Source of the DNA: a virus
Length of the DNA: 37,149 nucleotides
Strand: one strand, 5' to 3'
UHGV virus genome: UHGV-0075871
Positions 21,724-36,001 of this stretch are shown in pieces (the stretch's first letter is position 1; the number at the start of each line of letters is the position of its first letter). Both the position numbers and the translations under genes were made by a program. The notes under the pieces are model-generated. The model was not told the DNA's origin. It did no database searches and saw only the letters and a list, made by a program, of their open reading frames with translations.

Positions 21724-22187
21724 TGATCGATGTTCGAATTGTTCCCGCTACCGAAGAGCATCTTCAGATGATTTTGCCGGATGTTCGTCAGGCTGATATT
21801 GACGAACTGTATGCGGTATCGCTGATGACTACCGAAGATGCGCTGCGTGTTGGTCTTCGCACTGCGACTATGGCCTGGTCAGGATTTGCGAACGGAGAAC
21901 TGGTAACCATGTTTGGCGTATCTCCGGCGTCAATGATCGGTGGCAATGGTACGCCCTGGCTGGTAGGAACCAGCCGTATTGAAAAATATCAGAAGACATT
22001 TCTTCGCCACTGCCGCCCTGTATTGCAGCAGATGCTGGCAGTTTATCCGCGCCTGGAAAACTACGTCGACGAGCGAAACCATGTTGCCAAAGAATGGCTG
22101 CACTGGCTTGGATTCAGGCTTGAAGAAGCCGCGCCTTATGGTGCTCTTGGTCTTAATTTCCACAGATTTCACATGGAGAGAAAATAA
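21723..22187 (+). CDS. hypothetical virion protein
   Basis: 154 aa ORF coupled between tail tube and ejection-protein genes. Confidence 0.55.
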   Translation: MIDVRIVPATEEHLQMILPDVRQADIDELYAVSLMTTEDALRVGLRTATMAWSGFANGELVTMFGVSPASMIGGNGTPWLVGTSRIEKYQKTFLRHCRPVLQQMLAVYPRLENYVDERNHVAKEWLHWLGFRLEEAAPYGALGLNFHRFHMERK

Positions 22188-22732
22188 TGTGCGATCCGGT
22201 TATTGCTGGTGGCGCAATGCTCGCCATGAGTGGCATTCAGGCATACACCCAGTACCAACAGGGAAAGTATGCCTCGAAGGTTGCAGAAGCGAACGCAGAT
22301 ATAGCCACAGCTCAGGCAAATGATGCAATAAACAGAGGTAACGCTGAAGCTGAGCAACGACGCAGAGAGACCCGACAGCGGCTTGGTACACAGGCGGCGA
22401 CAATGGGGGCTACCGGCGCTGATTTATCTACAGGTAACGCGCTGGATATATTTGGCGACACTGCCCAGTTTGGCGCTCTTGATTCGCTGACGACGGTGAA
22501 TAACGCGCAACGCGAGGCTTACGGTTATCAGGTTCAGGCTGCCAACTATAAAGCAGAAGCCAGTTCAGCCCGTAAACAGGGGAATGTGGGAGCAGCAACA
22601 ACATTGCTCACTGCGCCTCTGAAGGCATACGGTGCGTACCAGATGTTTGGTGGGACGTGGAGTCCGTTTACTCAAAGCACTCCTGCGCCAATCGGGGCAG
22701 CAGCAGGAACCAGATTACCCGGAGGATTATAA
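22187..22732 (+). CDS. internal virion protein (putative)
   Basis: 181 aa Ala/Gly/Gln-rich ORF in the position of a T7 gp14-like protein. Confidence 0.55.
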   Translation: MCDPVIAGGAMLAMSGIQAYTQYQQGKYASKVAEANADIATAQANDAINRGNAEAEQRRRETRQRLGTQAATMGATGADLSTGNALDIFGDTAQFGALDSLTTVNNAQREAYGYQVQAANYKAEASSARKQGNVGAATTLLTAPLKAYGAYQMFGGTWSPFTQSTPAPIGAAAGTRLPGGL

Positions 22733-27049: not shown

Positions 27050-29524
27050 ATGAGACAGGAATGTATACAAGCGGTCCAGCAGGCGGCGCAGCGCACGTTA
27101 ACGGCGCGAGAAATACAGAACATTGAAGACCGCATTTATCGAAATATGCGCTCCATTGCTCGTGATGACCCGATGTCGTGGCGACAACTTTCCGAATCAG
27201 AACGGTTGTATCGTGCAGCACAATTGGCATCTGAAGAATTACAGCGAGAAGCGGCATTAAAGAAACGTCGTGTGGCCCTCACTATAGCCGCACGTCAGAG
27301 ATTGGATAAATTTATCAATAGCTATCAAGGGGCTGATGGGAAACTTGGCGCTCTTAACCGTACTATTGCTTTTAATGCAGACGGTAAATCGAATTTCCTC
27401 TCTGTTGAATCCAGAACAAAAGCCACTCGTGATTATGCATTGAGTCAATTGCAGGAGGCATTTGAAGCAGTTGATCCTCGCTTTTTTGGCCTGTTTGAAG
27501 ATGAAGCGGGCGTGCGTGACCTGGTATATGAAATGCGAGGGCAAAATACTGGCAATGCTAAAGCAAGAAAAGGTGCTAAGGCGTGGAGAGAAGTGACAGA
27601 TCTACTGCGCCGCCGGTTTAATGATGCTGGTGGGGACATTGGCTATCTCGAAAACTGGGGGATCCCTCAACATCATTCTATGGAAAAGGTTGGGGCGGTA
27701 TCAAAAGATAAATGGGTTAGCGATGTTATAGGTAAGCTGGATCGCAAATATTATACCCGAGCCGATGGACAACTGATGAACGATGCCGAGTTGTCTGCAT
27801 TTCTTGGAGAGGCTTATAACACGATCGCTACTGGTGGGCTGAATAAGCTTACTGATACCGGAATGCGAATTTCCGGCGCACGTGCTAACCGTGGTAATGC
27901 ATCACGACAGATACATTTCAAAGATGCAGATTCCTATCTGCAATATCAGCAACTTTATGGCGATCGCTCTCTATGGGAAATCATGGTCGGTCACCTTGAA
28001 GGTATCAGTAAAGATATTGCACTGGTGGAAACATATGGCCCAAACCCCGATCATGTTTTCCGCTCTCTTCTTGATCAGGTGAAGGCAGAAACGGCAACAG
28101 CTAACCCGAGTAAAACCGGTAAAGTCGAGCGGCTGGCGAACAACACAGAGAATCTGTACAACTTTATTTCCGGAAAGACACAGCCTGTAGCGAATCCGCA
28201 CATCGCGCGATGGTCTGACAATATCCGCAACTGGCTGGTTGCCAGCAGACTCGGATCCGCGTTGCTGTCATCGTTCTCTGATCTTGGAACCATGTATCTG
28301 TCTGCGAAGGTGACCAACCTTCCAATGAACCAGTTATTCCGCAACCAGCTTGAAGCTATGGACCCAACGAACCGTACAGAACTTGCGCGGGCGCGCCGCG
28401 CTGGTCTGGCGATGGAATCTCTACTTGGCAGCGTTAACCGCTGGGCGATGGATAATATGGGGCCGTCTGTGTCTCGTTGGGCTGCAACGGCGGTAATGCG
28501 TGCCAGTGGGCTTACAGCATGGTCAGATGCGCACAAGCGCGCCTATGGCGTAACCATGATGGGAAGCCTGGGAGAAGTAGTGTCACGGACACCAGACCTT
28601 CGTAGCCTCGATGATTCTGATTTTCGTATCCTGAAAAGCAAAGGGATTACTGACACAGACTGGAGCGTATGGAAGCTGGCGCAACAGGAGGACTGGGGGA
28701 ACGGCAATAATACGATGCTGACACCGGAAAGCATTATGCGTATCCCTGATTCAGCAGTTAAACATCTTGGTGAGCCTGAACGCGTGAAATTTGAGGCAAT
28801 GCGTAAACTGCTCGGTGCCGTAACTGAAGAAGTTGATATGGCTGTTATTACACCGGGAGCACGTGAGCAACTGATAACCGGTTCTGGTATTCAGCGTGGA
28901 ACATGGAAAGGTGAATTAACGAGAAGTGTTTTCCTGTTTAAATCGTTCCCTATCTCGGTGGTTATGCGTCACTGGTCACGCGCTATGGGTATGCCGTCTG
29001 CTGGTGGGCGTGCGGCATATATTGCGACGTTTATTGCCAGTACGACCATTCTTGGCGCTTTGTCGCAGCAACTTAACGACCTTGCGTCTGGTCGTAATCC
29101 TCGCGAGATGACAGGAGAAGATGCTGCTAAATTTTGGCTTGGTGCTCTACTGAAAGGTGGTGGTCTTGGCCTTTACGGTGACTTTTTATTGTCAGATCAC
29201 ACTAGTTACGGAAGCGGCGCGCTGGCGTCGATGCTTGGCCCGGTAGCTGGTCTGGTTGATGACGTAGTGAAGATTGCTCAGGGCATACCGTTAAATGCTG
29301 TGGAAGGGAAGAGTGAGCAGACTGGTGGTGATCTGGTGAAGCTGGGGAAAGGTTTGATGCCAGGTGCGAATCTCTGGTACTTAAAGGCGGCTCTCGATCA
29401 TATGATCTTTAACCAGATGCAGGAGTATTTTTCACCAGGCTATTTGCGTAAAATGGAGCAACGTTCGAAGAAAGAGTTTAACCAGACATACTGGTGGCGA
29501 CCTCAGGATGTCACTCCGCAATAA
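27050..29524 (+). CDS. internal virion / DNA-ejection protein (largest)
   Basis: 824 aa; third member of the ejection-protein trio. Confidence 0.65.
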   Translation: MRQECIQAVQQAAQRTLTAREIQNIEDRIYRNMRSIARDDPMSWRQLSESERLYRAAQLASEELQREAALKKRRVALTIAARQRLDKFINSYQGADGKLGALNRTIAFNADGKSNFLSVESRTKATRDYALSQLQEAFEAVDPRFFGLFEDEAGVRDLVYEMRGQNTGNAKARKGAKAWREVTDLLRRRFNDAGGDIGYLENWGIPQHHSMEKVGAVSKDKWVSDVIGKLDRKYYTRADGQLMNDAELSAFLGEAYNTIATGGLNKLTDTGMRISGARANRGNASRQIHFKDADSYLQYQQLYGDRSLWEIMVGHLEGISKDIALVETYGPNPDHVFRSLLDQVKAETATANPSKTGKVERLANNTENLYNFISGKTQPVANPHIARWSDNIRNWLVASRLGSALLSSFSDLGTMYLSAKVTNLPMNQLFRNQLEAMDPTNRTELARARRAGLAMESLLGSVNRWAMDNMGPSVSRWAATAVMRASGLTAWSDAHKRAYGVTMMGSLGEVVSRTPDLRSLDDSDFRILKSKGITDTDWSVWKLAQQEDWGNGNNTMLTPESIMRIPDSAVKHLGEPERVKFEAMRKLLGAVTEEVDMAVITPGAREQLITGSGIQRGTWKGELTRSVFLFKSFPISVVMRHWSRAMGMPSAGGRAAYIATFIASTTILGALSQQLNDLASGRNPREMTGEDAAKFWLGALLKGGGLGLYGDFLLSDHTSYGSGALASMLGPVAGLVDDVVKIAQGIPLNAVEGKSEQTGGDLVKLGKGLMPGANLWYLKAALDHMIFNQMQEYFSPGYLRKMEQRSKKEFNQTYWWRPQDVTPQ

Positions 29525-29533
29525 GGAAGTGTT

Positions 29534-29707
29534 GTGTTTTTAATTATTTTGAGTGTGATAATTTCTGGTGGGTTGTTATTTATTGACCGCTACAAATATT
29601 TTCTTAACCCTCAGACTCAAGCTATTTGCTGGTTCATCTTTGTTGTGCAGGGAATAGTTCTTGTTGCAAGCCTTATTGAGGGGAGGCCTCTGATTTTTAC
29701 TGGGTAA
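29534..29707 (+). CDS. small two-helix membrane protein (candidate)
   Basis: Not in the ORF track (<60 aa); GTG at 29534 four nt after AAGGAAG; predicted product has two hydrophobic helices (FLIILSVIISGGLLFI and AICWFIFVVQGIVLVASLI). Confidence 0.35.
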   Translation: MFLIILSVIISGGLLFIDRYKYFLNPQTQAICWFIFVVQGIVLVASLIEGRPLIFTG

Positions 29708-29719
29708 ATAGGTGACTAC

Positions 29720-30016
29720 ATGCAAGCTATAGGATTCATTGTTTATATCGTCGTTGGTCTTTTTCAGTTGGCAGCAATTATGGCTGGGCTTGAATCATGG
29801 TGGGGATTGCACTGGATAATTGCAGCCCCCATTGCTTTCATCGTGAGCTATATTCCATTTGTTGGAGCGATTGTTGGTATGGTTGGCGCTGTGGATGTAT
29901 GGCGGTGGGAGTGGTGGCAGGCTGGCATTCTCTTCTTTGGTGGGATCATCTTTGCTGTTGTCTGCGGTGGAATGTCATCATTTTTCGAATGGCTATCATT
30001 CAGAAAAGGGACGTGA
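29720..30016 (+). CDS. small multi-pass membrane protein (Trp-rich), candidate superinfection-exclusion function
   Basis: 98 aa, about three hydrophobic helices and a WRWEWWQ motif; stop codon inside the palindrome GTGACATGTCAC, followed by a terminator. Confidence 0.6.
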   Translation: MQAIGFIVYIVVGLFQLAAIMAGLESWWGLHWIIAAPIAFIVSYIPFVGAIVGMVGAVDVWRWEWWQAGILFFGGIIFAVVCGGMSSFFEWLSFRKGT

Positions 30017-30025
30017 CATGTCACA

Positions 30026-30049
30026 GGCCGCTTTCGCGGCCTTGTTTTT
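30026..30049 (+). terminator. rho-independent terminator after the membrane-protein genes
   Basis: GGCCGC-TTTC-GCGGCC followed by TTGTTTTT. Confidence 0.65.
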
Positions 30050-30209
30050 AACGAATGCCACCGCCACCCGGGCGGGAATCCGCAGAACGCCCACCGCAGC
30101 GGGAGCCGTCAGCGGCAGTATCGCTGTCGTGCTGACAACGACCGGCAAAAGCCTGAGTTGAAGCTACCAGAGACAACAAAACGAACAGTGCAGCAAATGC
30201 TTTTTTCAT
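30048..30209 (-). CDS. small secreted peptide (candidate)
   Basis: Internal ATG of ORF 30048..30281 gives MKKAFAALFVLLSLVASTQAFA-GRCQ..., a classic Sec signal peptide with AXA cleavage site; plausible promoter TTGACG-16-TATAGA upstream; weak RBS; mature part Gly/Arg-rich and GC-rich, so uncertain. Confidence 0.3.
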   Translation of the reverse strand: MKKAFAALFVLLSLVASTQAFAGRCQHDSDTAADGSRCGGRSADSRPGGGGIR

Positions 30210-30303
30210 TGTGAAATTTCCATCTATAAGCCACCTCAATGTGGCGTCAATGAGTGTAGCACTGACTTTTGTTTCGTCCACAAAAAAAGCCCGCAGCGCT
30301 GGC

Positions 30304-30843
30304 TTACCAAAACTTGTACCACGGGGATTTATCCTTCAATGGGCAATCCTTCCATCGTGTGGCCAACCATTCATATTCTTTAAAATATGTGTTTATGTTT
30401 TCTTTTTCTCTAATGGCTTGTATAAGAGGTAGCGCAATCTGATAGTTATTTACAACGGAGCTGTAAAATACTTCCTTAATCATGGTCTCATCATAAGTTT
30501 TCCGCTTCACGCTCACAGCCATGCGTTCGTAGAAACCTAGACAGTAAATTATTTCTCTCTTCTCTGTCTTTTCTTCATCCGTAAGATCAGCCTGCCCATT
30601 GCTTGGATACATATAAGAGCGGAATGATTTGTTCGACTCGTGAATGCGGCGCATAGTAGATAGGCCTTTCTTATAATCTACATCAAACCTGCTTTCACCA
30701 AGGAATACTGAAGTGTGTACTTTTCTCGCTGTATTTACATTATAAATAATAGTAGCGATAGCTATGAACAAGCCAAGCGAAACCGCGACTGCACTTACGA
30801 TTTGAGCCACAGCCATGGCAAATTGCATTTCTTCACTTAACAC
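30304..30843 (-). CDS. moron: single-pass membrane protein, function unknown
   Basis: 179 aa; N-terminal hydrophobic helix (MAVAQIVSAVAVSLGLFIAIATIIY) then a soluble Lys/Glu/Tyr-rich domain; lower GC than neighbours; opposite strand; own leader with a 10-codon ORF and hairpin. Confidence 0.65.
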   Translation of the reverse strand: MLSEEMQFAMAVAQIVSAVAVSLGLFIAIATIIYNVNTARKVHTSVFLGESRFDVDYKKGLSTMRRIHESNKSFRSYMYPSNGQADLTDEEKTEKREIIYCLGFYERMAVSVKRKTYDETMIKEVFYSSVVNNYQIALPLIQAIREKENINTYFKEYEWLATRWKDCPLKDKSPWYKFW

Positions 30844-31059: not shown

Positions 31060-31752
31060 TCAGAAGAACCCAGCCTTGTCGTTGATGTACTCCGCGTGCG
31101 TCTGGATATCACGCAGGCATTTGCTCACACCAACGATGTAGCAGAACATGGTGGTCAGCTCCGCCGCCGCGCCCGATACGTCGTGCCCGTCGTCCTGTAA
31201 CTGGTTCAGCAGATTCATCAGCAGTGAGTTCTCCGTCAGGCCGAGAACACCAGACGGAGAATGAATCAGGCTACGGTAGCCGGGCTTCAGTGGAGCACTG
31301 TAGGTTTTGTTCTCTATCTTCATCGCCTGCATTACTGCTGACGCCGTGGCGTTGGCTACCTGGTCGGCAACCATCTTTATGCGTTCTTCCTGCGGTAGCG
31401 AGTTTTTAATGTAACTTCCGGTGCGGCGGATCTGAGGAAGAACCTCGCCTGTAACCCATTCAAGAAATCTGAATGCTCTCGTTCCCTCAGTCATTGCCTC
31501 TTTGCAACGCAGAATAAGGATGTAGAGACCTGATTCTGAAACGATGGATAGTTCTTGTATTCCACCAGGGGTCTGTATTGAATACAGCCCCTTTTTGTTC
31601 CAGCCTTTTTTATCAAGTTTTCTCGCTTGTGTAACATCAATATTCAAAGCATTGCACACATCTTTGGTGACAAACCAAGGTTCTCCGTCAATCATGAACA
31701 TACGGATCTGGCAGGATGACTCAAAGGAAAAGATGGAAGGTTTGGTATTCAT
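31060..31752 (-). CDS. antirepressor-type protein with Bro-N-like N-terminal domain
   Basis: ORF track 31060..31797; start moved to MNTKPSIFSF with AAGGTG RBS; N-terminal FESSCQIRMFMIDGEPWFVTKDVCNALNI resembles Bro-N; C-terminal ~85 aa paralogous to the small gene at 32067..32324. Confidence 0.7.
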   Translation of the reverse strand: MNTKPSIFSFESSCQIRMFMIDGEPWFVTKDVCNALNIDVTQARKLDKKGWNKKGLYSIQTPGGIQELSIVSESGLYILILRCKEAMTEGTRAFRFLEWVTGEVLPQIRRTGSYIKNSLPQEERIKMVADQVANATASAVMQAMKIENKTYSAPLKPGYRSLIHSPSGVLGLTENSLLMNLLNQLQDDGHDVSGAAAELTTMFCYIVGVSKCLRDIQTHAEYINDKAGFF

Positions 31753-31778
31753 GGCGATCACCTTTGTAGTTAGGTTAA

Positions 31779-31811
31779 TCACCACCGCTGAGACCAATCA
31801 GATGGTGGTGA
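31779..31811 (-). other. stem-loop in the 5' leader of the Bro-N gene with hexaloop GACCAA (plus-strand sense)
   Basis: TCACCACCGCTGA-GACCAA-TCAGATGGTGGTGA; imperfect 12-bp stem; same loop sequence as the hairpin at 31949..31964. Confidence 0.4.
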
Positions 31812-31904
31812 ACTGTGCAGAGTTGGTCTTACCGGCTACAAAGGAACCCGGCGCACCTTTCGGTGCCCCCACACAGCCCACCATAGAATAGGTGCGCTTT
31901 ACAC

Positions 31905-31994
31905 ATAAAAAAAACCGCTTATGCGGCATATGTGCCTCTGTAGTAATCCGGGAGACCAATCCCGGCACTGGATTTTGCCAGTGCCCGATTACTA
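31905..31994 (-). ncRNA. candidate structured RNA element / small RNA between the two antirepressor genes
   Basis: Outer 8-bp stem TAGTAATC/GATTACTA (31941..31948 with 31987..31994) enclosing hairpins CGGGA-GACCAA-TCCCG and GCACTGG-ATTTTG-CCAGTGC; in minus-strand sense followed by short hairpin CCGC-ATAA-GCGG and T8 (31907..31926); operator palindrome just upstream. Confidence 0.25.
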
Positions 31995-32519: not shown

Positions 32520-35126
32520 ATGACGGTCTCAACCGAAGTTGACCACAACGAATACACCGGTAACGGCGTTACGACATCGTTTCCGTATGCCTTTAGGGTT
32601 TTCAATAAATCTGATTTGATTGTGCAGGTTGTTGATATTCATGAAAATATCACCGTACTGACTCTTGATACTGATTATATAGTTACCGGGGCCGGAGGAT
32701 ACAATGGTGGAAATGTAATATTGTCGAAGGCGTTGGCCAATGGCTATAAGATTTCTATATCACGAGAGCTACCGGTTACACAGGAAACTGATCTGCGCAA
32801 TCAGGGTAAGTTCTTTGCGGAAGTGCATGAGGATGCTTTTGATAAGCTAACGATGCTGATCCAGTTAGTCAAAAGCATGGCTCGGCTGGCTCTTCGTAAA
32901 CCATCATTTAGTGCCACTTACTACGATGCACTCGGCAATCGTATTCGTAACCTTGATGATCCATTATTTCCTCAGGACGCTTCCACGAAGAAATATACAG
33001 ACTCATCTATCAAAGGAGTTATTAACAGCAACATATCTAAAACACTCCGCTTCCCTGAGATAGTAAGCGAAATGGCATCAGCATCTTCTAGGGCAAACTC
33101 AATTCAGGGGTATGACAGTTTAGGACGTCCTGTTCCTATTTTTTCAATTACAGATACTGCTGATTTATGCCTTAAGCTAGCAAGTGTCAACGGATCATCA
33201 TACGTTGGTACCAGATTTGGTGATACACTTGAACAGACGCTAAATAGTACTCAGTTCATTAATTCCTGCAGTTTAGTCACATCTAAAACACTTGAGAGAT
33301 TATCAAGGCCTAACTCAAAAATAGTGTTAGTTGGTGACAGCTTAAGTGCCCCATATAATATAAGCACAGTGGATCGATCAAGCATTTTTGCCGCTCATCT
33401 TAAGAGAGTTTTGCAAGAGAAATTCCCAAGTTCTACTTTATTTAACAGAGCAATTGGTGGAATGAGGTACTATGACCTTGGAAAAGATACACCAGCAATT
33501 ACTTCTTATAACTCACAGTACCCATGGTATTCAGACACGAACAGACGCTGGATTGATTACATTCGTGATATTAACCCTGATGTTGTTATTATTGCTTTTG
33601 GCATGAATGACGGAGATGGTTGGGATGTTGGTAACTTCCCGCAGAAAACTTTTTTTAAATTGATGGCTGAACTGAATGATATTACTTCAATGCCTGAAAT
33701 TGTTTTTTGTACAAATATCCTCCCATCAAGTACCACAAGTGACTCTGAATTTAGCAGTTTAGAAGCTCAGAATGGACGAAACGCAATGGCAGGATGGACT
33801 CGTTCATATGCGCAGTATGTTGGCGCTGGGCTTATTGATTTTAATCGTTACTTTAATGCAGTACGTGATGGGGTTGATGTGGTTTCTGGTAATTATGTGA
33901 GGGCAACTATTTCAAAAGATGTTACATTGCCTTATGAATATGAAGATTTATCATATTCTTACTCCGTAAGGATTCAATTTGTAGATATTGAAATCCTTAG
34001 TTCTGGGATTCAATTCCAATTGTCTTCATACCATAATAATTTCATTAACTTGAAATATACAGGCTCTGCCTTTGAAACCACACACTATACTGCATCAACA
34101 GGGACTGTAGGTGTTTTTATGCGCAATATTGTTAAATTATCTGCTCCACTTGGTTTGTTTTCAGTTGAATTTAAACTTATTGGAAACTTCGTTGAGATAA
34201 CACTTAACGATAACGAAATACTATTCAGTAGTAATATTGTAAGGTTTGGTGGTTTATTTTATCCTCGCATCGGTGGTTCAGGGAACTGCAAAATTGATAT
34301 GCAGCCGATGATTCCTGTTAAGCTTAAAAAGTCAATGACTAACGAAGATGTTTATTCGCCTGGTAGTGGTAATAATAAGAATCACCCAACAGCTTATGCA
34401 AGCTCTAGAATATATCCACCGGTTCTTGATGGATGCTTTAATAGCATTTTCTTTAAAGAGATGAAAACTGATGGCGTTTACCTTGATTTTATCACAGGAC
34501 AATATGAAATAGTTAATAGCTATTCTCCCAACTTATCTAAAAAAGGAAACGTATCTGATATTCTTTCCTTTGTTTCAGGTGACCTTATTTATTCCTATTC
34601 ATCAGATATTTTAGAAGGGGCTGTTTTTGGTTCCGCAAATAAATGCTATATAGACAGTAATAAGTTTTTGCTAGCTAATCAGAAATTAAGAGGGATTACT
34701 GTTATTGTTGAGGGGAAACAATATGCAGGTGGAGAATTGGCGTATTATGTCACACTTGGTGAGGGGTTAACTGGTAACCGTCTGCATATGACAATAACCG
34801 ATAATAATATTCCACGCTGTACTGCAGTGATGAATGGAGTATCTTCTGATCTTATCGGTTCAAATTCGTTTCAGGTAAACCCATCTATTTTTCACAAACA
34901 TACTAGTTCAATCGATGTCAATAATGGAATTCATTCTATGGCATACGATAATCACATGGCCTCTGGTAACATTGCAGAAACTGAAATATCTGAACTTACT
35001 CAGGATATTGTATCTAAAATAAAACTTGGTTATGCAAGTGAAACGACTTCTGGAGTTGATGTTGTTATTGCCAGAGTGCAGGTTATTTTTGATGGATTAA
35101 CATCATCTGGAGTTTGCAGGAAATAA
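32520..35126 (+). CDS. tailspike / tail fibre protein with central SGNH (GDSL)-like hydrolase domain
   Basis: 868 aa; conserved-looking N-terminal particle-binding region; KIVLVGDSLSAPYN (GDS block) and IIAFGMNDG (G-x-N-D block) about 80 aa apart; AT-rich distal two-thirds typical of exchanged receptor-binding modules; no clear D-x-x-H block seen. Confidence 0.75.
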   Translation: MTVSTEVDHNEYTGNGVTTSFPYAFRVFNKSDLIVQVVDIHENITVLTLDTDYIVTGAGGYNGGNVILSKALANGYKISISRELPVTQETDLRNQGKFFAEVHEDAFDKLTMLIQLVKSMARLALRKPSFSATYYDALGNRIRNLDDPLFPQDASTKKYTDSSIKGVINSNISKTLRFPEIVSEMASASSRANSIQGYDSLGRPVPIFSITDTADLCLKLASVNGSSYVGTRFGDTLEQTLNSTQFINSCSLVTSKTLERLSRPNSKIVLVGDSLSAPYNISTVDRSSIFAAHLKRVLQEKFPSSTLFNRAIGGMRYYDLGKDTPAITSYNSQYPWYSDTNRRWIDYIRDINPDVVIIAFGMNDGDGWDVGNFPQKTFFKLMAELNDITSMPEIVFCTNILPSSTTSDSEFSSLEAQNGRNAMAGWTRSYAQYVGAGLIDFNRYFNAVRDGVDVVSGNYVRATISKDVTLPYEYEDLSYSYSVRIQFVDIEILSSGIQFQLSSYHNNFINLKYTGSAFETTHYTASTGTVGVFMRNIVKLSAPLGLFSVEFKLIGNFVEITLNDNEILFSSNIVRFGGLFYPRIGGSGNCKIDMQPMIPVKLKKSMTNEDVYSPGSGNNKNHPTAYASSRIYPPVLDGCFNSIFFKEMKTDGVYLDFITGQYEIVNSYSPNLSKKGNVSDILSFVSGDLIYSYSSDILEGAVFGSANKCYIDSNKFLLANQKLRGITVIVEGKQYAGGELAYYVTLGEGLTGNRLHMTITDNNIPRCTAVMNGVSSDLIGSNSFQVNPSIFHKHTSSIDVNNGIHSMAYDNHMASGNIAETEISELTQDIVSKIKLGYASETTSGVDVVIARVQVIFDGLTSSGVCRK

Positions 35127-35289: not shown

Positions 35290-35706
35290 ATGGTGTGTGC
35301 TATGTCGGTTAACATAACAACTGAGTCTTTAAATCAATGGCTTAGTGTGAGCTCTCTTGCTGCGGTTATCGTAGGCGTTCCGCCAGAGGTGGCGCTCGGT
35401 GCTCTTGCTGGTGCGGTAATTTTTGTTACCTCTGCGGTAGAGTATCCAATTCGTCGTCGCGTACTCTTGTCGATGCTCAGCTTTCTCTGCGGACTTCTTT
35501 TCTACAAACCAGCAGCATCAATTCTTATCGGCATAGCCAGCCTGATCCCTACCATCACGCAGGACTCTTTTGAAAAAGGTATTGTTTTCTCTGCTGGCGC
35601 ATTCGTGTCAGCAATTGTCGCTGTGCGTATTGGTATATGGCTCTACCACCGTTCAGACAATCCACGCGATTTAATTCCGGGGAGAAAAGACGATGGTAAC
35701 GCATGA
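35290..35706 (+). CDS. holin-like membrane protein
   Basis: 138 aa with about three hydrophobic helices and a charged C-terminus; first gene of the lysis cassette. Confidence 0.5.
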   Translation: MVCAMSVNITTESLNQWLSVSSLAAVIVGVPPEVALGALAGAVIFVTSAVEYPIRRRVLLSMLSFLCGLLFYKPAASILIGIASLIPTITQDSFEKGIVFSAGAFVSAIVAVRIGIWLYHRSDNPRDLIPGRKDDGNA

Positions 35707-36001
35707 GTTTTTTTTGCTTATCACCAATGCAGTTATTTGTACTGGCATAGCAATTCGCGTTGTCACATTCCGGCGTAACGGCTCTCAACATCGAAGATGG
35801 GGAGGGTGGCTTGCTTATTTCCTTATTGTTGCTGCGGCCAGTATTCCTGTTCGTGTCGTCTATGCAATCTGGTTACGCACGCCAATGGCTGTGGATTTAT
35901 CTGAGGTCATTATCAACGCTGTCATGCTTGCCGCGGTTATTAAAACACGCGGTAACGTTGTTCAGATTTTCAAAATATCGAGGTCTAAACATGGAGATTA
36001 A
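35693..36001 (+). CDS. second small membrane protein of the lysis cassette (holin/antiholin-like)
   Basis: 102 aa, about three hydrophobic helices; overlaps the holin-like gene end and the endolysin start. Confidence 0.45.

What the first reader, a model, noticed from the sequence alone, without database searches (positions are those of the whole stretch)
29534..30209. Cluster of small membrane or secreted proteins right after the DNA-ejection genes
After the three large ejection-protein genes come a 58-codon two-helix membrane ORF (29534..29707, absent from the ORF track), a 98-aa Trp-rich multi-pass membrane protein (29720..30016), a terminator, and on the opposite strand a candidate 53-aa secreted peptide with a textbook signal sequence. 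Small inner-membrane proteins at this position are typical superinfection-exclusion factors that block incoming DNA injection (as P22 SieA or T4 Imm do), and could be expressed in the lysogen.
Basis: inference. Interest (0 to 1): 0.5.

Follow-up and report, generated by a model that had tools for sequence, protein, structure and literature searches.

The report
Three small envelope genes in prophage
Just after the DNA-ejection genes of a phiV10-like E. coli prophage lie three real, conserved small genes (two inner-membrane proteins and one exported 31-residue peptide); they are swappable accessory genes of unknown function, plausibly protecting the cell envelope, and are unrelated to any known exclusion protein.

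Summary
The window is a Uetakevirus (epsilon15/phiV10-like) prophage, identical over this locus to E. coli TUM10828.

All three ORFs are real genes under purifying selection:
- ORF A, 29534-29707: 57 aa, 2 TM.
- ORF B, 29720-30016: 98 aa, 3-4 TM, Trp-rich, phrog_3075.
- ORF C, 30048-30209 minus strand: 53 aa, a signal peptide plus a nearly invariant Cys-loop peptide, phrog_14503.

An intrinsic terminator (30025-30049) separates B from C.

None matches SieA, Imm, any Pfam, NCBIfam or PADLOC family, or a solved fold.

The locus is a hypervariable accessory slot. phiV10 has a 99% identical ejection protein but a different 46-aa 2-TM gene and no B or C. Other relatives carry a periplasmic protein or a lipoprotein there.

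- A always abuts the last ejection gene, so it is probably transcribed late.
- B also occurs in a siphovirus-type prophage, beside an integrase and on a plasmid-like contig.
- C is a self-contained moron found in several phage types and in 450 of 5426 complete E. coli genomes.
- C's mature peptide carries a widespread extracytoplasmic motif that no family library models (379 protein clusters).

Envelope-level exclusion is plausible but untested. Unlike sieA, A and B sit on the late-operon strand with no detectable promoter.

The parts
27050..29524 (+). Last of three large internal-virion/ejection protein genes (epsilon15 gp17 / PhiV10p20 type). This is the context gene to which ORF A is tightly joined.
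   Evidence: phrog_684 'virion structural protein', E = 0. 818/824 residues identical to PhiV10p20. A T7_gp14-family gene lies upstream at 22187-22732.
29534..29707 (+). ORF A: 57-aa two-helix inner-membrane protein with a basic, invariant inter-helix loop (DRYKYFL). It has a GTG start and an AAGGAAG ribosome-binding site. It is not annotated in RefSeq E. coli genomes.
   Evidence: Sequence. 13 homologues of 56-58 aa. dN/dS 0.17-0.30. Lies 9-10 nt after the 824-aa gene in Citrobacter and K. oxytoca prophages as well. Present in 205 of 5426 complete E. coli genomes, with 'none' annotated in all 12 sampled records.
29720..30016 (+). ORF B: 98-aa Trp-rich inner-membrane protein of 3-4 helices (phrog_3075, WP_001546911.1), with a basic C-terminal tail.
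   Evidence: phrog_3075, E = 3e-54. 46 homologues, with invariant G13, Q16, P46, W63 and other positions. dN/dS 0.06-0.17. AlphaFold2 pLDDT 89, helices 2-28, 32-43, 46-60 and 65-97. No fold or sequence match. Present in 216 of 5426 E. coli genomes.
30025..30049 (+). Intrinsic terminator ending the late-operon transcript that carries ORFs A and B. The same hairpin lies directly after the ORF C stop codon on the other strand. The block is shared with phiV10 and TL-2011b.
   Evidence: Scan hit with 7-bp stem, 6 GC pairs and a T-run. Folds at -17.2 kcal/mol on the + strand and -17.9 on the minus strand. Annotated as a terminator in phiV10.
30048..30209 (-). ORF C: 53-aa precursor (WP_000708858.1, named 'transmembrane anchored protein', phrog_14503). 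It has a Sec-type signal peptide (1-22, AFA|G) and a 31-aa mature peptide, GRCQHDSDTAADGSRCGGRSADSRPGGGGIR, with two invariant Cys.
   Evidence: Alignment A2 shows a variable signal peptide and a nearly invariant mature core. dN/dS about 0.02-0.03 in the mature part against Citrobacter and K. oxytoca. Present in 450 of 5426 E. coli genomes. The motif occurs in 379 protein clusters.
30230..30245 (-). Conserved hairpin (GCCAC-n6-GTGGC) between the candidate promoter and the ORF C ribosome-binding site. It is probably a 5'-UTR stem-loop.
   Evidence: Alignments A4 and A5. 90% of cells are paired against 30-53% when the partners are slid, and two pairs change on both sides. Only 6 sequences, so support is modest.
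30253..30280 (-). Candidate sigma-70 promoter of ORF C: -35 TGGACG, 16-nt spacer, extended -10 TGcTACACT.
   Evidence: Read from the sequence. It scores 8 of 12, below the scan's threshold, so the scan did not report it. The -10 hexamer TACACT/TACAAT/TACGAT is conserved in Citrobacter, Klebsiella and Pectobacterium copies whose synonymous sites are saturated. This is an inference.
30282..30305 (-). Imperfect hairpin plus T7 run that ends the upstream DUF4760 gene. It forms the upstream edge of the ORF C cassette.
   Evidence: Fold. The cassette shared with TL-2011b and many E. coli genomes runs 30012-30304.
30304..30843 (-). DUF4760 gene: the variable neighbour of the ORF C cassette. Related prophages have DUF2335, a YafO toxin or another gene here instead.
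   Evidence: Pfam DUF4760, E = 8e-31. Alternative neighbours.

Best explanation
This is the accessory-gene junction of a phiV10-like Uetakevirus prophage, between the ejection-protein operon and the tailspike gene. It holds three independent, swappable modules, and all three encode proteins sent to the cell envelope.

Shown:
- ORF A is a 2-TM inner-membrane protein fused to the distal end of the late virion operon.
- ORF B is a 3-4-TM Trp-rich inner-membrane protein. It travels between podovirus prophages, a siphovirus-type prophage and a plasmid-like element.
- ORF C is a convergent single-gene moron whose product has a cleavable signal peptide and a 31-residue mature part with two invariant Cys.
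- All three are under purifying selection, and none belongs to a known family with an assigned function.

Inferred:
- A and B are made from late-operon read-through that stops at the 30025-30049 terminator.
- C is transcribed from its own weak promoter (30253-30280) with a 5' hairpin, and so can be made in the lysogen. The peptide is exported by Sec, cleaved after AFA, and oxidised to a 14-residue disulfide loop in the periplasm.

Most likely function (inference, about 30%): they make the envelope of the phage-carrying cell refractory to attack from outside. A and B would act at the inner membrane against incoming DNA-delivery conduits or membrane-active agents. C would act in the periplasm by binding an envelope target. 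This would be functionally analogous to SieA, Imm or Sp, but not homologous to them.
For: Real genes.

Envelope targeting: hydropathy; AlphaFold2 four-helix model, pLDDT 89; variable signal peptide against invariant mature peptide.

Accessory and swappable:
- The ejection protein is 99% identical to phiV10's, but phiV10 has a different 46-aa 2-TM gene and no B or C.
- The same slot holds a 46-aa 2-TM protein in SPN1S, a periplasmic protein of 102 or 123 aa, a lipoprotein of 126 aa, or ORF B alone.

ORF B is autonomous. It follows an opposite-strand gene in Yersinia, lies at the end of a siphovirus-type prophage, next to an integrase, and on a contig with replicase and ProQ genes.

ORF C as a moron:
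- The cassette 30012-30304 alone is shared with P22-like TL-2011b and hundreds of E. coli genomes, next to different partner genes.
- It occurs as a solitary gene in other phage types.
- It is flanked by terminators.
- It has a conserved -10 element and a 5' hairpin.
- Its GC content is 56.8% against 48.6% for the window.

Position: the locus is analogous to sieA in P22.
Against: - There are no functional or expression data of any kind.
- No similarity to any known exclusion or defence family.
- A and B are on the late-operon strand with no detectable promoter, so they may not be made in lysogens.
- The ORF C promoter is below the scan threshold, and the hairpin covariation rests on 6 sequences.
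- ORF B's presence in a siphovirus-type prophage and on a plasmid-like contig weakens any specific link to podovirus ejection proteins.
- The mature ORF C peptide gave a low-confidence model, pLDDT 45-63.
- The wider motif family is mostly chromosomal, solitary and uncharacterised, so it says nothing about phages.
Confidence: 0.45

Rival explanations
1. One reading: ORFs A and/or B are SieA/Imm-type superinfection-exclusion proteins. They would be made in the lysogen and would block the inner-membrane step of DNA injection by phages with the same kind of ejection proteins.
For: - Small inner-membrane proteins at the sieA-equivalent position.
- ORF B follows the last large internal-virion gene in four distinct podovirus lineages.
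- SieA acts on the C-terminal parts of the ejection proteins (abstract).
Against: - No homology to SieA and no FxRYPxEAxxFNK motif.
- No Imm or other exclusion family hit.
- Same strand as the late operon, spacers of 9 and 12 nt, and no promoter found. sieA has its own promoter on the opposite strand.
- phiV10 has a 99% identical ejection protein but lacks A and B.
- ORF B also sits in a siphovirus-type prophage and on a plasmid-like contig.
Confidence: 0.2
2. ORFs A and B are late lytic-cycle membrane proteins that serve the producing cell rather than the lysogen. They might tune lysis timing, condition the membrane during assembly, or stop progeny from wasting DNA on cells that are already infected.
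For: - Operon anatomy: same strand, tight spacing, a shared terminator and no promoter.
- Every Uetakevirus examined has some small membrane or envelope gene glued to the end of this operon.
- ORF B gives a weak sub-threshold hit to Phage_holin_5_2, E = 0.047, 14.4 bits against a cut-off of 29.2.
Against: - A complete lysis cassette with two holin-family genes exists elsewhere, at 35290-36001.
- The slot's contents are non-homologous between close relatives, which is unusual for a needed lytic function.
- ORF B occurs as a stand-alone gene outside any late operon.
Confidence: 0.2
3. ORF B and/or ORF C are host-fitness (lysogenic-conversion) factors unrelated to phage exclusion. ORF B might be an orphan immunity-like protein against membrane-active bacteriocins or a stress-tolerance factor. 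ORF C might be a periplasmic modulator of an envelope process or sensor, or a host-interaction peptide.
For: - ORF B resembles small 3-4-TM immunity proteins in size and location only (own knowledge, not tested), and is carried by non-phage elements.
- ORF C is very prevalent (450 of 5426 genomes) across phage types.
- Its motif occurs in non-phage proteins of Alphaproteobacteria, Cyanobacteria, Vibrio and Bacteriovorax, sometimes alongside PG_binding_1 or SH3_3 domains.
Against: No homology to any immunity, virulence or signalling family. No bacteriocin gene lies nearby. The idea rests on architecture alone.
Confidence: 0.14
4. One or more of the ORFs is a chance open frame and not a gene. 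ORF A is the main suspect, because it is missing from the ORF track and from RefSeq annotation.
For: ORF A is short, uses GTG and is unannotated in all 12 sampled RefSeq E. coli records. PHROG gives only a weak hit, E = 0.064.
Against: - Length is conserved at 56-58 aa across E. coli, Citrobacter, Klebsiella, Salmonella and Enterobacter, with 29 invariant columns.
- dN/dS is 0.17-0.30, with third-position changes in excess.
- A good ribosome-binding site is present.
- ORFs B and C are even more strongly constrained.
Confidence: 0.01

Closest known systems
P22 SieA (inner-membrane superinfection-exclusion protein of P22-like phages)
   Same: An inner-membrane protein encoded between the last ejection-protein gene and the tailspike gene of a temperate podovirus. 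It is an accessory gene, present in only some relatives.
   Different: - SieA is 162-164 aa with three predicted TM domains and a conserved FxRYPxEAxxFNK motif. ORFs A and B are 57 and 98 aa with no detectable similarity.
- sieA is on the opposite strand with its own promoter. A and B are in line with the late operon.
- An exclusion phenotype is demonstrated for SieA and untested here.
PhiV10p21 / SPN1S_0020 (46-aa two-helix membrane proteins of phiV10 and SPN1S)
   Same: Same position, directly after the gp17-type gene and before the same terminator. Same architecture as ORF A: TM, a short basic loop, TM.
   Different: No detectable sequence homology to ORF A (hhalign probability 0.3%). These phages have no ORF B or ORF C. 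Their function is equally unknown.
Phage morons in the HK97/lambda sense (for example lambda bor and lom): an extra gene with its own promoter and terminator inserted between conserved genes. This definition is from my own knowledge of the moron concept (Juhala et al. 2000).
   Same: ORF C is a single gene bounded by terminators, with a candidate promoter and atypical GC content. It is present or absent among close relatives and shared between unrelated phage types. PHROG files it under 'moron, auxiliary metabolic gene and host takeover'.
   Different: The product is a tiny soluble periplasmic peptide, not an outer-membrane protein or lipoprotein. Promoter activity and expression in the lysogen are not demonstrated.
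T4 Sp (spackle) and T4 Imm (from my own knowledge)
   Same: Small phage proteins that act in the periplasm (Sp, with a signal peptide) or the inner membrane (Imm, 2 TM) to stop incoming phage DNA. These are the same compartments predicted for ORF C and for ORFs A and B.
   Different: No Pfam hit to the Imm family or to any other family at E <= 1. Sp and Imm are early genes of a lytic phage. The resemblance is one of compartment and size only.

Membership tests
P22 SieA family | Sequence homology, including the conserved cytoplasmic motif FxRYPxEAxxFNK | tested here: not met
   hhalign of ORF B profile A1 and ORF A profile A3 against P22 SieA gives probability 0.2% and 0.1%. The motif is absent from both sequences.
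P22 SieA family | Inner-membrane protein of about 160-200 aa with three or more TM segments | tested here: not met
   ORF A is 57 aa with 2 TM. ORF B is 98 aa with 3-4 TM. SieA is 162-164 aa.
P22 SieA family | Gene located between the last ejection-protein gene and the tailspike gene | tested here: met
   ORFs A-C lie between 27050-29524 (gp17-type) and the tailspike gene at 32520-35126. Compare P22.
P22 SieA family | Own promoter and expression from the prophage | tested here: inconclusive
   A and B are on the same strand as the late operon, with spacers of 9 and 12 nt and no promoter-like site at 29000-29720. Expression itself cannot be tested here.
P22 SieA family | Blocks DNA injection by related phages | not testable with these tools
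   Needs plating-efficiency and DNA-entry assays.
T4 Imm and other curated exclusion or defence families (Pfam, NCBIfam, PADLOC) | Match to the family profile above its threshold | tested here: not met
   ORFs A, B and C give no hit at E <= 1 in Pfam, apart from one sub-threshold holin hit for B. There are no significant NCBIfam hits and no PADLOC hits.
Holins (Pfam Phage_holin_5_2) | Profile score above the gathering cut-off, and a place in the lysis cassette | tested here: not met
   ORF B scores 14.4 bits against a cut-off of 29.2. The lysis cassette, with Phage_holin_8 and Phage_holin_3_7, is at 35290-36001.
PHROG phrog_3075 (ORF B) and phrog_14503 (ORF C) | Full-length profile match | tested here: met
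   E = 3.4e-54 over 1-98 of 98, and E = 2.3e-40 over 1-53 of 53. phrog_3075 has no known function. phrog_14503 carries only the label 'membrane associated protein'.
Moron (promoter-gene-terminator insertion) | Present or absent among close relatives, and shared between otherwise unrelated phages | tested here: met
   ORF C is absent from phiV10 and SPN1S. It is present in P22-like TL-2011b, in Pectobacterium and in other E. coli phage types.
Moron (promoter-gene-terminator insertion) | Own terminator | tested here: met
   Hairpin 30025-30042 lies directly after the ORF C stop codon and folds at -17.9 kcal/mol on the minus strand, although the minus strand has no U-run. An upstream terminator at 30282-30305 insulates the cassette.
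Moron (promoter-gene-terminator insertion) | Own promoter | tested here: inconclusive
   The candidate TGGACG-16-TGcTACACT scores 8 of 12, below the scan threshold. The -10 hexamer is conserved in 5 of 6 diverged copies. No transcript data are available.
Sec-exported, signal-peptidase-I-cleaved proteins | n-h-c signal peptide with small residues at -3 and -1, and no lipobox | tested here: met
   The sequence reads MKK, AFAALFVLLSLVA, STQAFA|G. The A/S/V-x-A|G pattern is kept in homologues while the rest of the signal peptide varies. SignalP was not available, and cleavage has not been shown experimentally.

The most novel reading that the evidence does not exclude
The mature ORF C peptide is the free, phage-borne form of a previously undescribed and phylogenetically broad extracytoplasmic Cys-loop mini-domain: [AS]G[NP]-C-x4-[DQ]-x-A-x-DGSRCG-x-R[SA]A-x-x-RPGG.

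In bacteria this domain is tethered to lipoproteins, signal-anchored proteins and proteins carrying PG-binding or SH3 domains. Prophages of several types would secrete it into the periplasm as a decoy or inhibitor of whatever envelope component the domain binds. That could give exclusion of incoming phages or remodelling of the lysogen's envelope.
Probability: 0.15. Interest if true: 0.7.

Novelty: new member of a known kind. Interest (0 to 1): 0.4.

Why it matters
These genes are common. ORFs A and B are each in about 4% of complete E. coli genomes and ORF C is in about 8%. All three are conserved across Enterobacterales, yet none has a known function, and ORF A is not even annotated in RefSeq.

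They sit in the one place in temperate podoviruses where an injection-blocking protein (SieA) is known to reside. That makes them cheap, well-defined candidates for new envelope-level exclusion factors, which matters for phage-therapy host range and for prophage competition.

Separately, the ORF C motif defines an uncurated small extracytoplasmic domain found from enterobacteria to rhizobia and cyanobacteria. A phenotype for the phage peptide would give a first handle on that whole family.

Tried and rejected
- Pfam, NCBIfam and PADLOC scans of all three ORFs gave nothing significant.
- PDB sequence searches with profiles A1 and A2 found nothing.
- ORF C structure: the mature part had pLDDT 45-63, so no fold search was attempted.
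- ORF A showed no homology to SieA or to the phiV10 46-aa protein.
- Literature searches found nothing: 'transmembrane anchored protein' with prophage, 'DGSRCG', DUF4760, and Uetakevirus with membrane protein and superinfection. The epsilon15 genome paper was not held.
- Promoter scans upstream of ORF B homologues in siphovirus-type and integrase-adjacent contexts were uninformative.
- A search for conserved neighbours around 57 motif-family loci from other taxa found no recurrent neighbour.
- Rfam found no RNA family inside 29534-30310.
- The chance-ORF reading and the holin reading were considered and rejected.
Full report
**What the window is.**
The region 29300-30500 matches Uetakevirus (epsilon15/phiV10-like) phages: HEMP4, phiv142-3 and Phi05_2388 at about 98-99% over 84% of the query, and phiV10 in part. 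Over 29500-30310 it is 100% identical to a prophage in E. coli TUM10828. The upstream genes are a T7_gp14-family protein (22187-22732) followed by three large proteins. The last of these (27050-29524) is phrog_684 'virion structural protein' and 818/824 residues identical to PhiV10p20. Downstream lie a minus-strand arm, a tailspike gene with a GDSL esterase domain, and a separate lysis cassette.

**Checking the observation.**
All four features are where they were described.
- ORF A (29534-29707) has a GTG start, an AAGGAAG ribosome-binding site, 57 aa and two hydrophobic helices around a basic loop.
- ORF B (29720-30016) is 98 aa with 8 Trp. AlphaFold2, run on a 25-sequence alignment, gives a confident four-helix model: pLDDT 89, helices 2-28, 32-43, 46-60 and 65-97.
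- The terminator is a 7-bp, GC-rich hairpin at 30025-30042 followed by TGTTTTT. phiV10's annotators marked the same element as a terminator.
- ORF C (30048-30209, minus strand) is a 53-aa precursor with a canonical signal peptide ending AFA|G.

RefSeq annotates B (WP_001546911.1) and C (WP_000708858.1) but not A.

**Are they genes?**
Yes, all three.
- ORF A has 13 homologues of 56-58 aa in E. coli, Citrobacter, Klebsiella, Salmonella and Enterobacter, with 29 invariant columns including the loop DRYKYFL. Against the Citrobacter and K. oxytoca copies, dN/dS is 0.30 and 0.17. The start codon is GTG, TTG or ATG at the same position.
- ORF B has 46 homologues of about 98 aa, down to about 45% identity. 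dN/dS is 0.06-0.17 where dS is measurable.
- ORF C shows the classic pattern of an exported peptide. The signal peptide changes freely, while the mature core CQHDSDTAADGSRCGGRSADSRPGG is almost invariant. In the mature part, dS is 1.9-2.6 and dN about 0.05-0.06.

The chance-ORF rival is rejected.

**What they are not.**
None of the three hits any Pfam, NCBIfam or PADLOC family at a meaningful level. ORF B's match to Phage_holin_5_2 scores 14.4 bits against a cut-off of 29.2, and the phage already has two holin-family genes elsewhere. Profile-profile comparison with P22 SieA gives probabilities of 0.2% and 0.1%. ORF B's model has no convincing structural neighbour among viral predicted structures or PDB chains, and profile searches of PDB sequences are empty. 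PHROG recognises B (phrog_3075, unknown function) and C (phrog_14503, 'membrane associated protein', moron category).

**Anatomy of the slot.**
The decisive comparative result is that this is a hypervariable accessory slot, and its contents are almost always envelope proteins.
- phiV10 has a 99% identical ejection protein. Immediately after its stop codon it has an unrelated 46-aa two-helix protein, then the same terminator, and no B or C. SPN1S has a homologue of that 46-aa protein.
- Citrobacter has an ORF A homologue followed by a 126-aa lipoprotein. K. oxytoca has ORF A alone.
- Cronobacter and a quite different Salmonella podovirus-type prophage have ORF B directly after the last large internal protein.
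- Klebsiella and another E. coli prophage have a periplasmic protein of 102 or 123 aa followed by ORF B.

ORF A is therefore always glued (9-10 nt) to the gp17-type gene, and the three genes are independent modules.

ORF B is not tied to ejection genes.
- In Yersinia it follows a gene on the opposite strand.
- In one metagenomic prophage it lies after lambda-like tail-tip genes, next to DinI.
- In another it lies beside an integrase.
- In a third contig it lies among replicase and ProQ genes, which suggests a plasmid.

**ORF C as a moron.**
The block 30012-30304 (the shared terminator, ORF C, its upstream region and the upstream terminator) is what P22-like TL-2011b and several hundred E. coli genomes share with this window. 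In those genomes it lies next to different partner genes: DUF4760, DUF2335, a YafO toxin or others. Homologues also occur as solitary genes between opposite-strand genes in a Pectobacterium phage, and next to a RelB/YafQ pair in another E. coli phage.

Upstream of the ATG I read the following elements:
- an imperfect terminator for the DUF4760 gene, 30282-30305;
- a sub-threshold promoter, TGGACG-16 nt-TGcTACACT, 30253-30280;
- a hairpin, GCCAC-n6-GTGGC, 30230-30245.

The -10 hexamer and the hairpin are retained in copies whose synonymous sites are saturated. The Pectobacterium copy carries a compensatory A-U to G-C change. Pairing is 90%, against 30-53% in slid controls, but only six sequences were available. 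GC content is 56.8% against 48.6% for the window. This layout is what one expects for a gene that can be expressed from the repressed prophage, but no transcript data exist.

**Transcription of A and B.**
A and B lie on the late-operon strand, 9 and 12 nt after the preceding stop codons and upstream of the operon's terminator. No sigma-70-like site was found between 29000 and 29720. P22 sieA, by contrast, is on the opposite strand with its own annotated promoter. The simplest reading is that A and B are made late in the lytic cycle. ORF B's stand-alone contexts elsewhere show that it can also function as an independent unit.

**The ORF C motif.**
A profile of ORF C, searched against 1.84 billion representative proteins, found 379 clusters at E <= 0.001. 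Nearly all of the top 146 contain the motif [AS]G[NP]-C-x4-[DQ]-x-A-x-DGSRCG-x-R[SA]A-x-x-RPGG. The motif appears in several arrangements:
- as a stand-alone peptide of signal peptide plus motif;
- directly after a signal peptide or lipobox of larger proteins;
- at the extreme C-terminus after a hydrophobic segment;
- sometimes twice in one protein;
- as a four-Cys variant.

No Pfam or NCBIfam model covers it. A few larger proteins also carry PG_binding_1 or SH3_3 domains. A genome scan found it in Enterobacterales, many Alphaproteobacteria, Cyanobacteria, Vibrio, Bacteriovorax and others. Every member that carries a name is 'hypothetical', and no neighbour gene recurs. AlphaFold2 did not give a confident fold for the mature peptide.

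**Mechanism.**
Shown:
- three constrained small genes;
- two predicted inner-membrane products and one predicted exported product;
- accessory, modular inheritance;
- terminators on both sides of ORF C.

Inferred:
- late co-transcription of A and B;
- independent transcription of C, possibly in the lysogen;
- Sec export, cleavage after AFA, and a C25-C38 disulfide.

My best functional guess, at about 30%, is envelope-level protection of the phage-carrying cell, meaning exclusion in the broad sense. It rests on three points: the sieA-like position; the fact that everything found in this slot is an envelope protein (2-TM, 4-TM, periplasmic or lipoprotein); and the rapid swapping expected of genes in an arms race.

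The rivals are:
- a strict SieA-like, lysogen-expressed injection block by A and B (0.2);
- a late lytic-cycle membrane role (0.2);
- a host-fitness or immunity-like role unrelated to phages (0.14).

**Comparison and novelty.**
The locus resembles P22 sieA in position and compartment but fails every sequence and size criterion for SieA membership. ORF A is a positional and architectural analogue of PhiV10p21, without detectable homology. ORF C fits the moron definition except for an unproven promoter. I therefore file the locus as new members of a known kind: prophage accessory genes for small envelope proteins and candidate exclusion factors.

The genes are common. ORF A is in 205, B in 216 and C in 450 of 5426 complete E. 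coli genomes. That prevalence, the missing annotation of ORF A and the uncurated ORF C motif make the locus worth a simple plating experiment, but nothing here would greatly surprise a phage specialist.

Noticed in passing
window 30048-30209 (minus strand); proteins P0117-P0262; loci L032-L088: The mature ORF C peptide carries a widespread ~28-aa extracytoplasmic Cys-bracketed motif that no family library models: [AS]G[NP]-C-x4-[DQ]-x-A-x-DGSRCG-x-R[SA]A-x-x-RPGG. It occurs in 379 protein clusters from Enterobacterales, Alphaproteobacteria, Cyanobacteria, Vibrio and Bacteriovorax. It appears free, lipid- or TM-tethered, duplicated, or as a 4-Cys variant. No Pfam, NCBIfam or PDB match was found.
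   Followed up: partly
window 31801-31888 and 31908-31984 (minus strand): Rfam finds a C4 antisense RNA (78.6 bits) and an isrK Hfq-binding sRNA (74.7 bits) directly upstream of the Bro-N antirepressor gene (31060-31797). This suggests a P1-type immI-like RNA-controlled antirepressor module heading the minus-strand arm, which continues into DUF4760.
   Followed up: no
window 30304-30843 (minus strand): A DUF4760 gene (N-terminal TM plus a soluble domain) occupies a second variable slot next to ORF C. Related prophages carry DUF2335, a YafO-family toxin, HicAB or other genes there, which suggests a hotspot for toxin/antitoxin- or defence-like cargo. It gave no PADLOC hit, and only one paper in the library mentions DUF4760.
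   Followed up: partly
window 29534-29707: ORF A is a conserved, selected gene, but no feature is annotated at this locus in any of the 12 sampled RefSeq complete E. coli genomes. It is present in 205 of 5426 genomes. This is a systematic annotation gap for a 57-aa GTG-start membrane protein.
   Followed up: yes
window 32520-35126: The tailspike gene carries a GDSL/SGNH esterase domain (Lipase_GDSL_2, E = 2e-9). This suggests a receptor-deacetylating rather than glycan-cleaving tailspike, unlike phiV10's.
   Followed up: no
window 30012-30023: The perfect palindrome GTGACATGTCAC overlaps the ORF B stop codon, just before the terminator. It marks the left edge of the block shared with phiV10 and TL-2011b. 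A similar palindrome, GTGATATATCAC, follows the ORF B homologue in an unrelated siphovirus-type prophage (L018). It may be a recombination junction, a binding site or an extra terminator stem.
   Followed up: no
window 13046-13119 (minus strand): A tRNA gene (Rfam 73.3 bits) lies inside the prophage, just upstream of the late operon.
   Followed up: no
L021 4279-4659; L015 2684-2992; L026 4636-5007; L028 5539-5982: In related prophages the same slot holds a 126-aa lipoprotein (Citrobacter), homologous periplasmic proteins of 102 and 123 aa (Klebsiella, E. coli) or a 147-aa secreted protein on the opposite strand (Yersinia). All are envelope-targeted and uncharacterised.
   Followed up: partly
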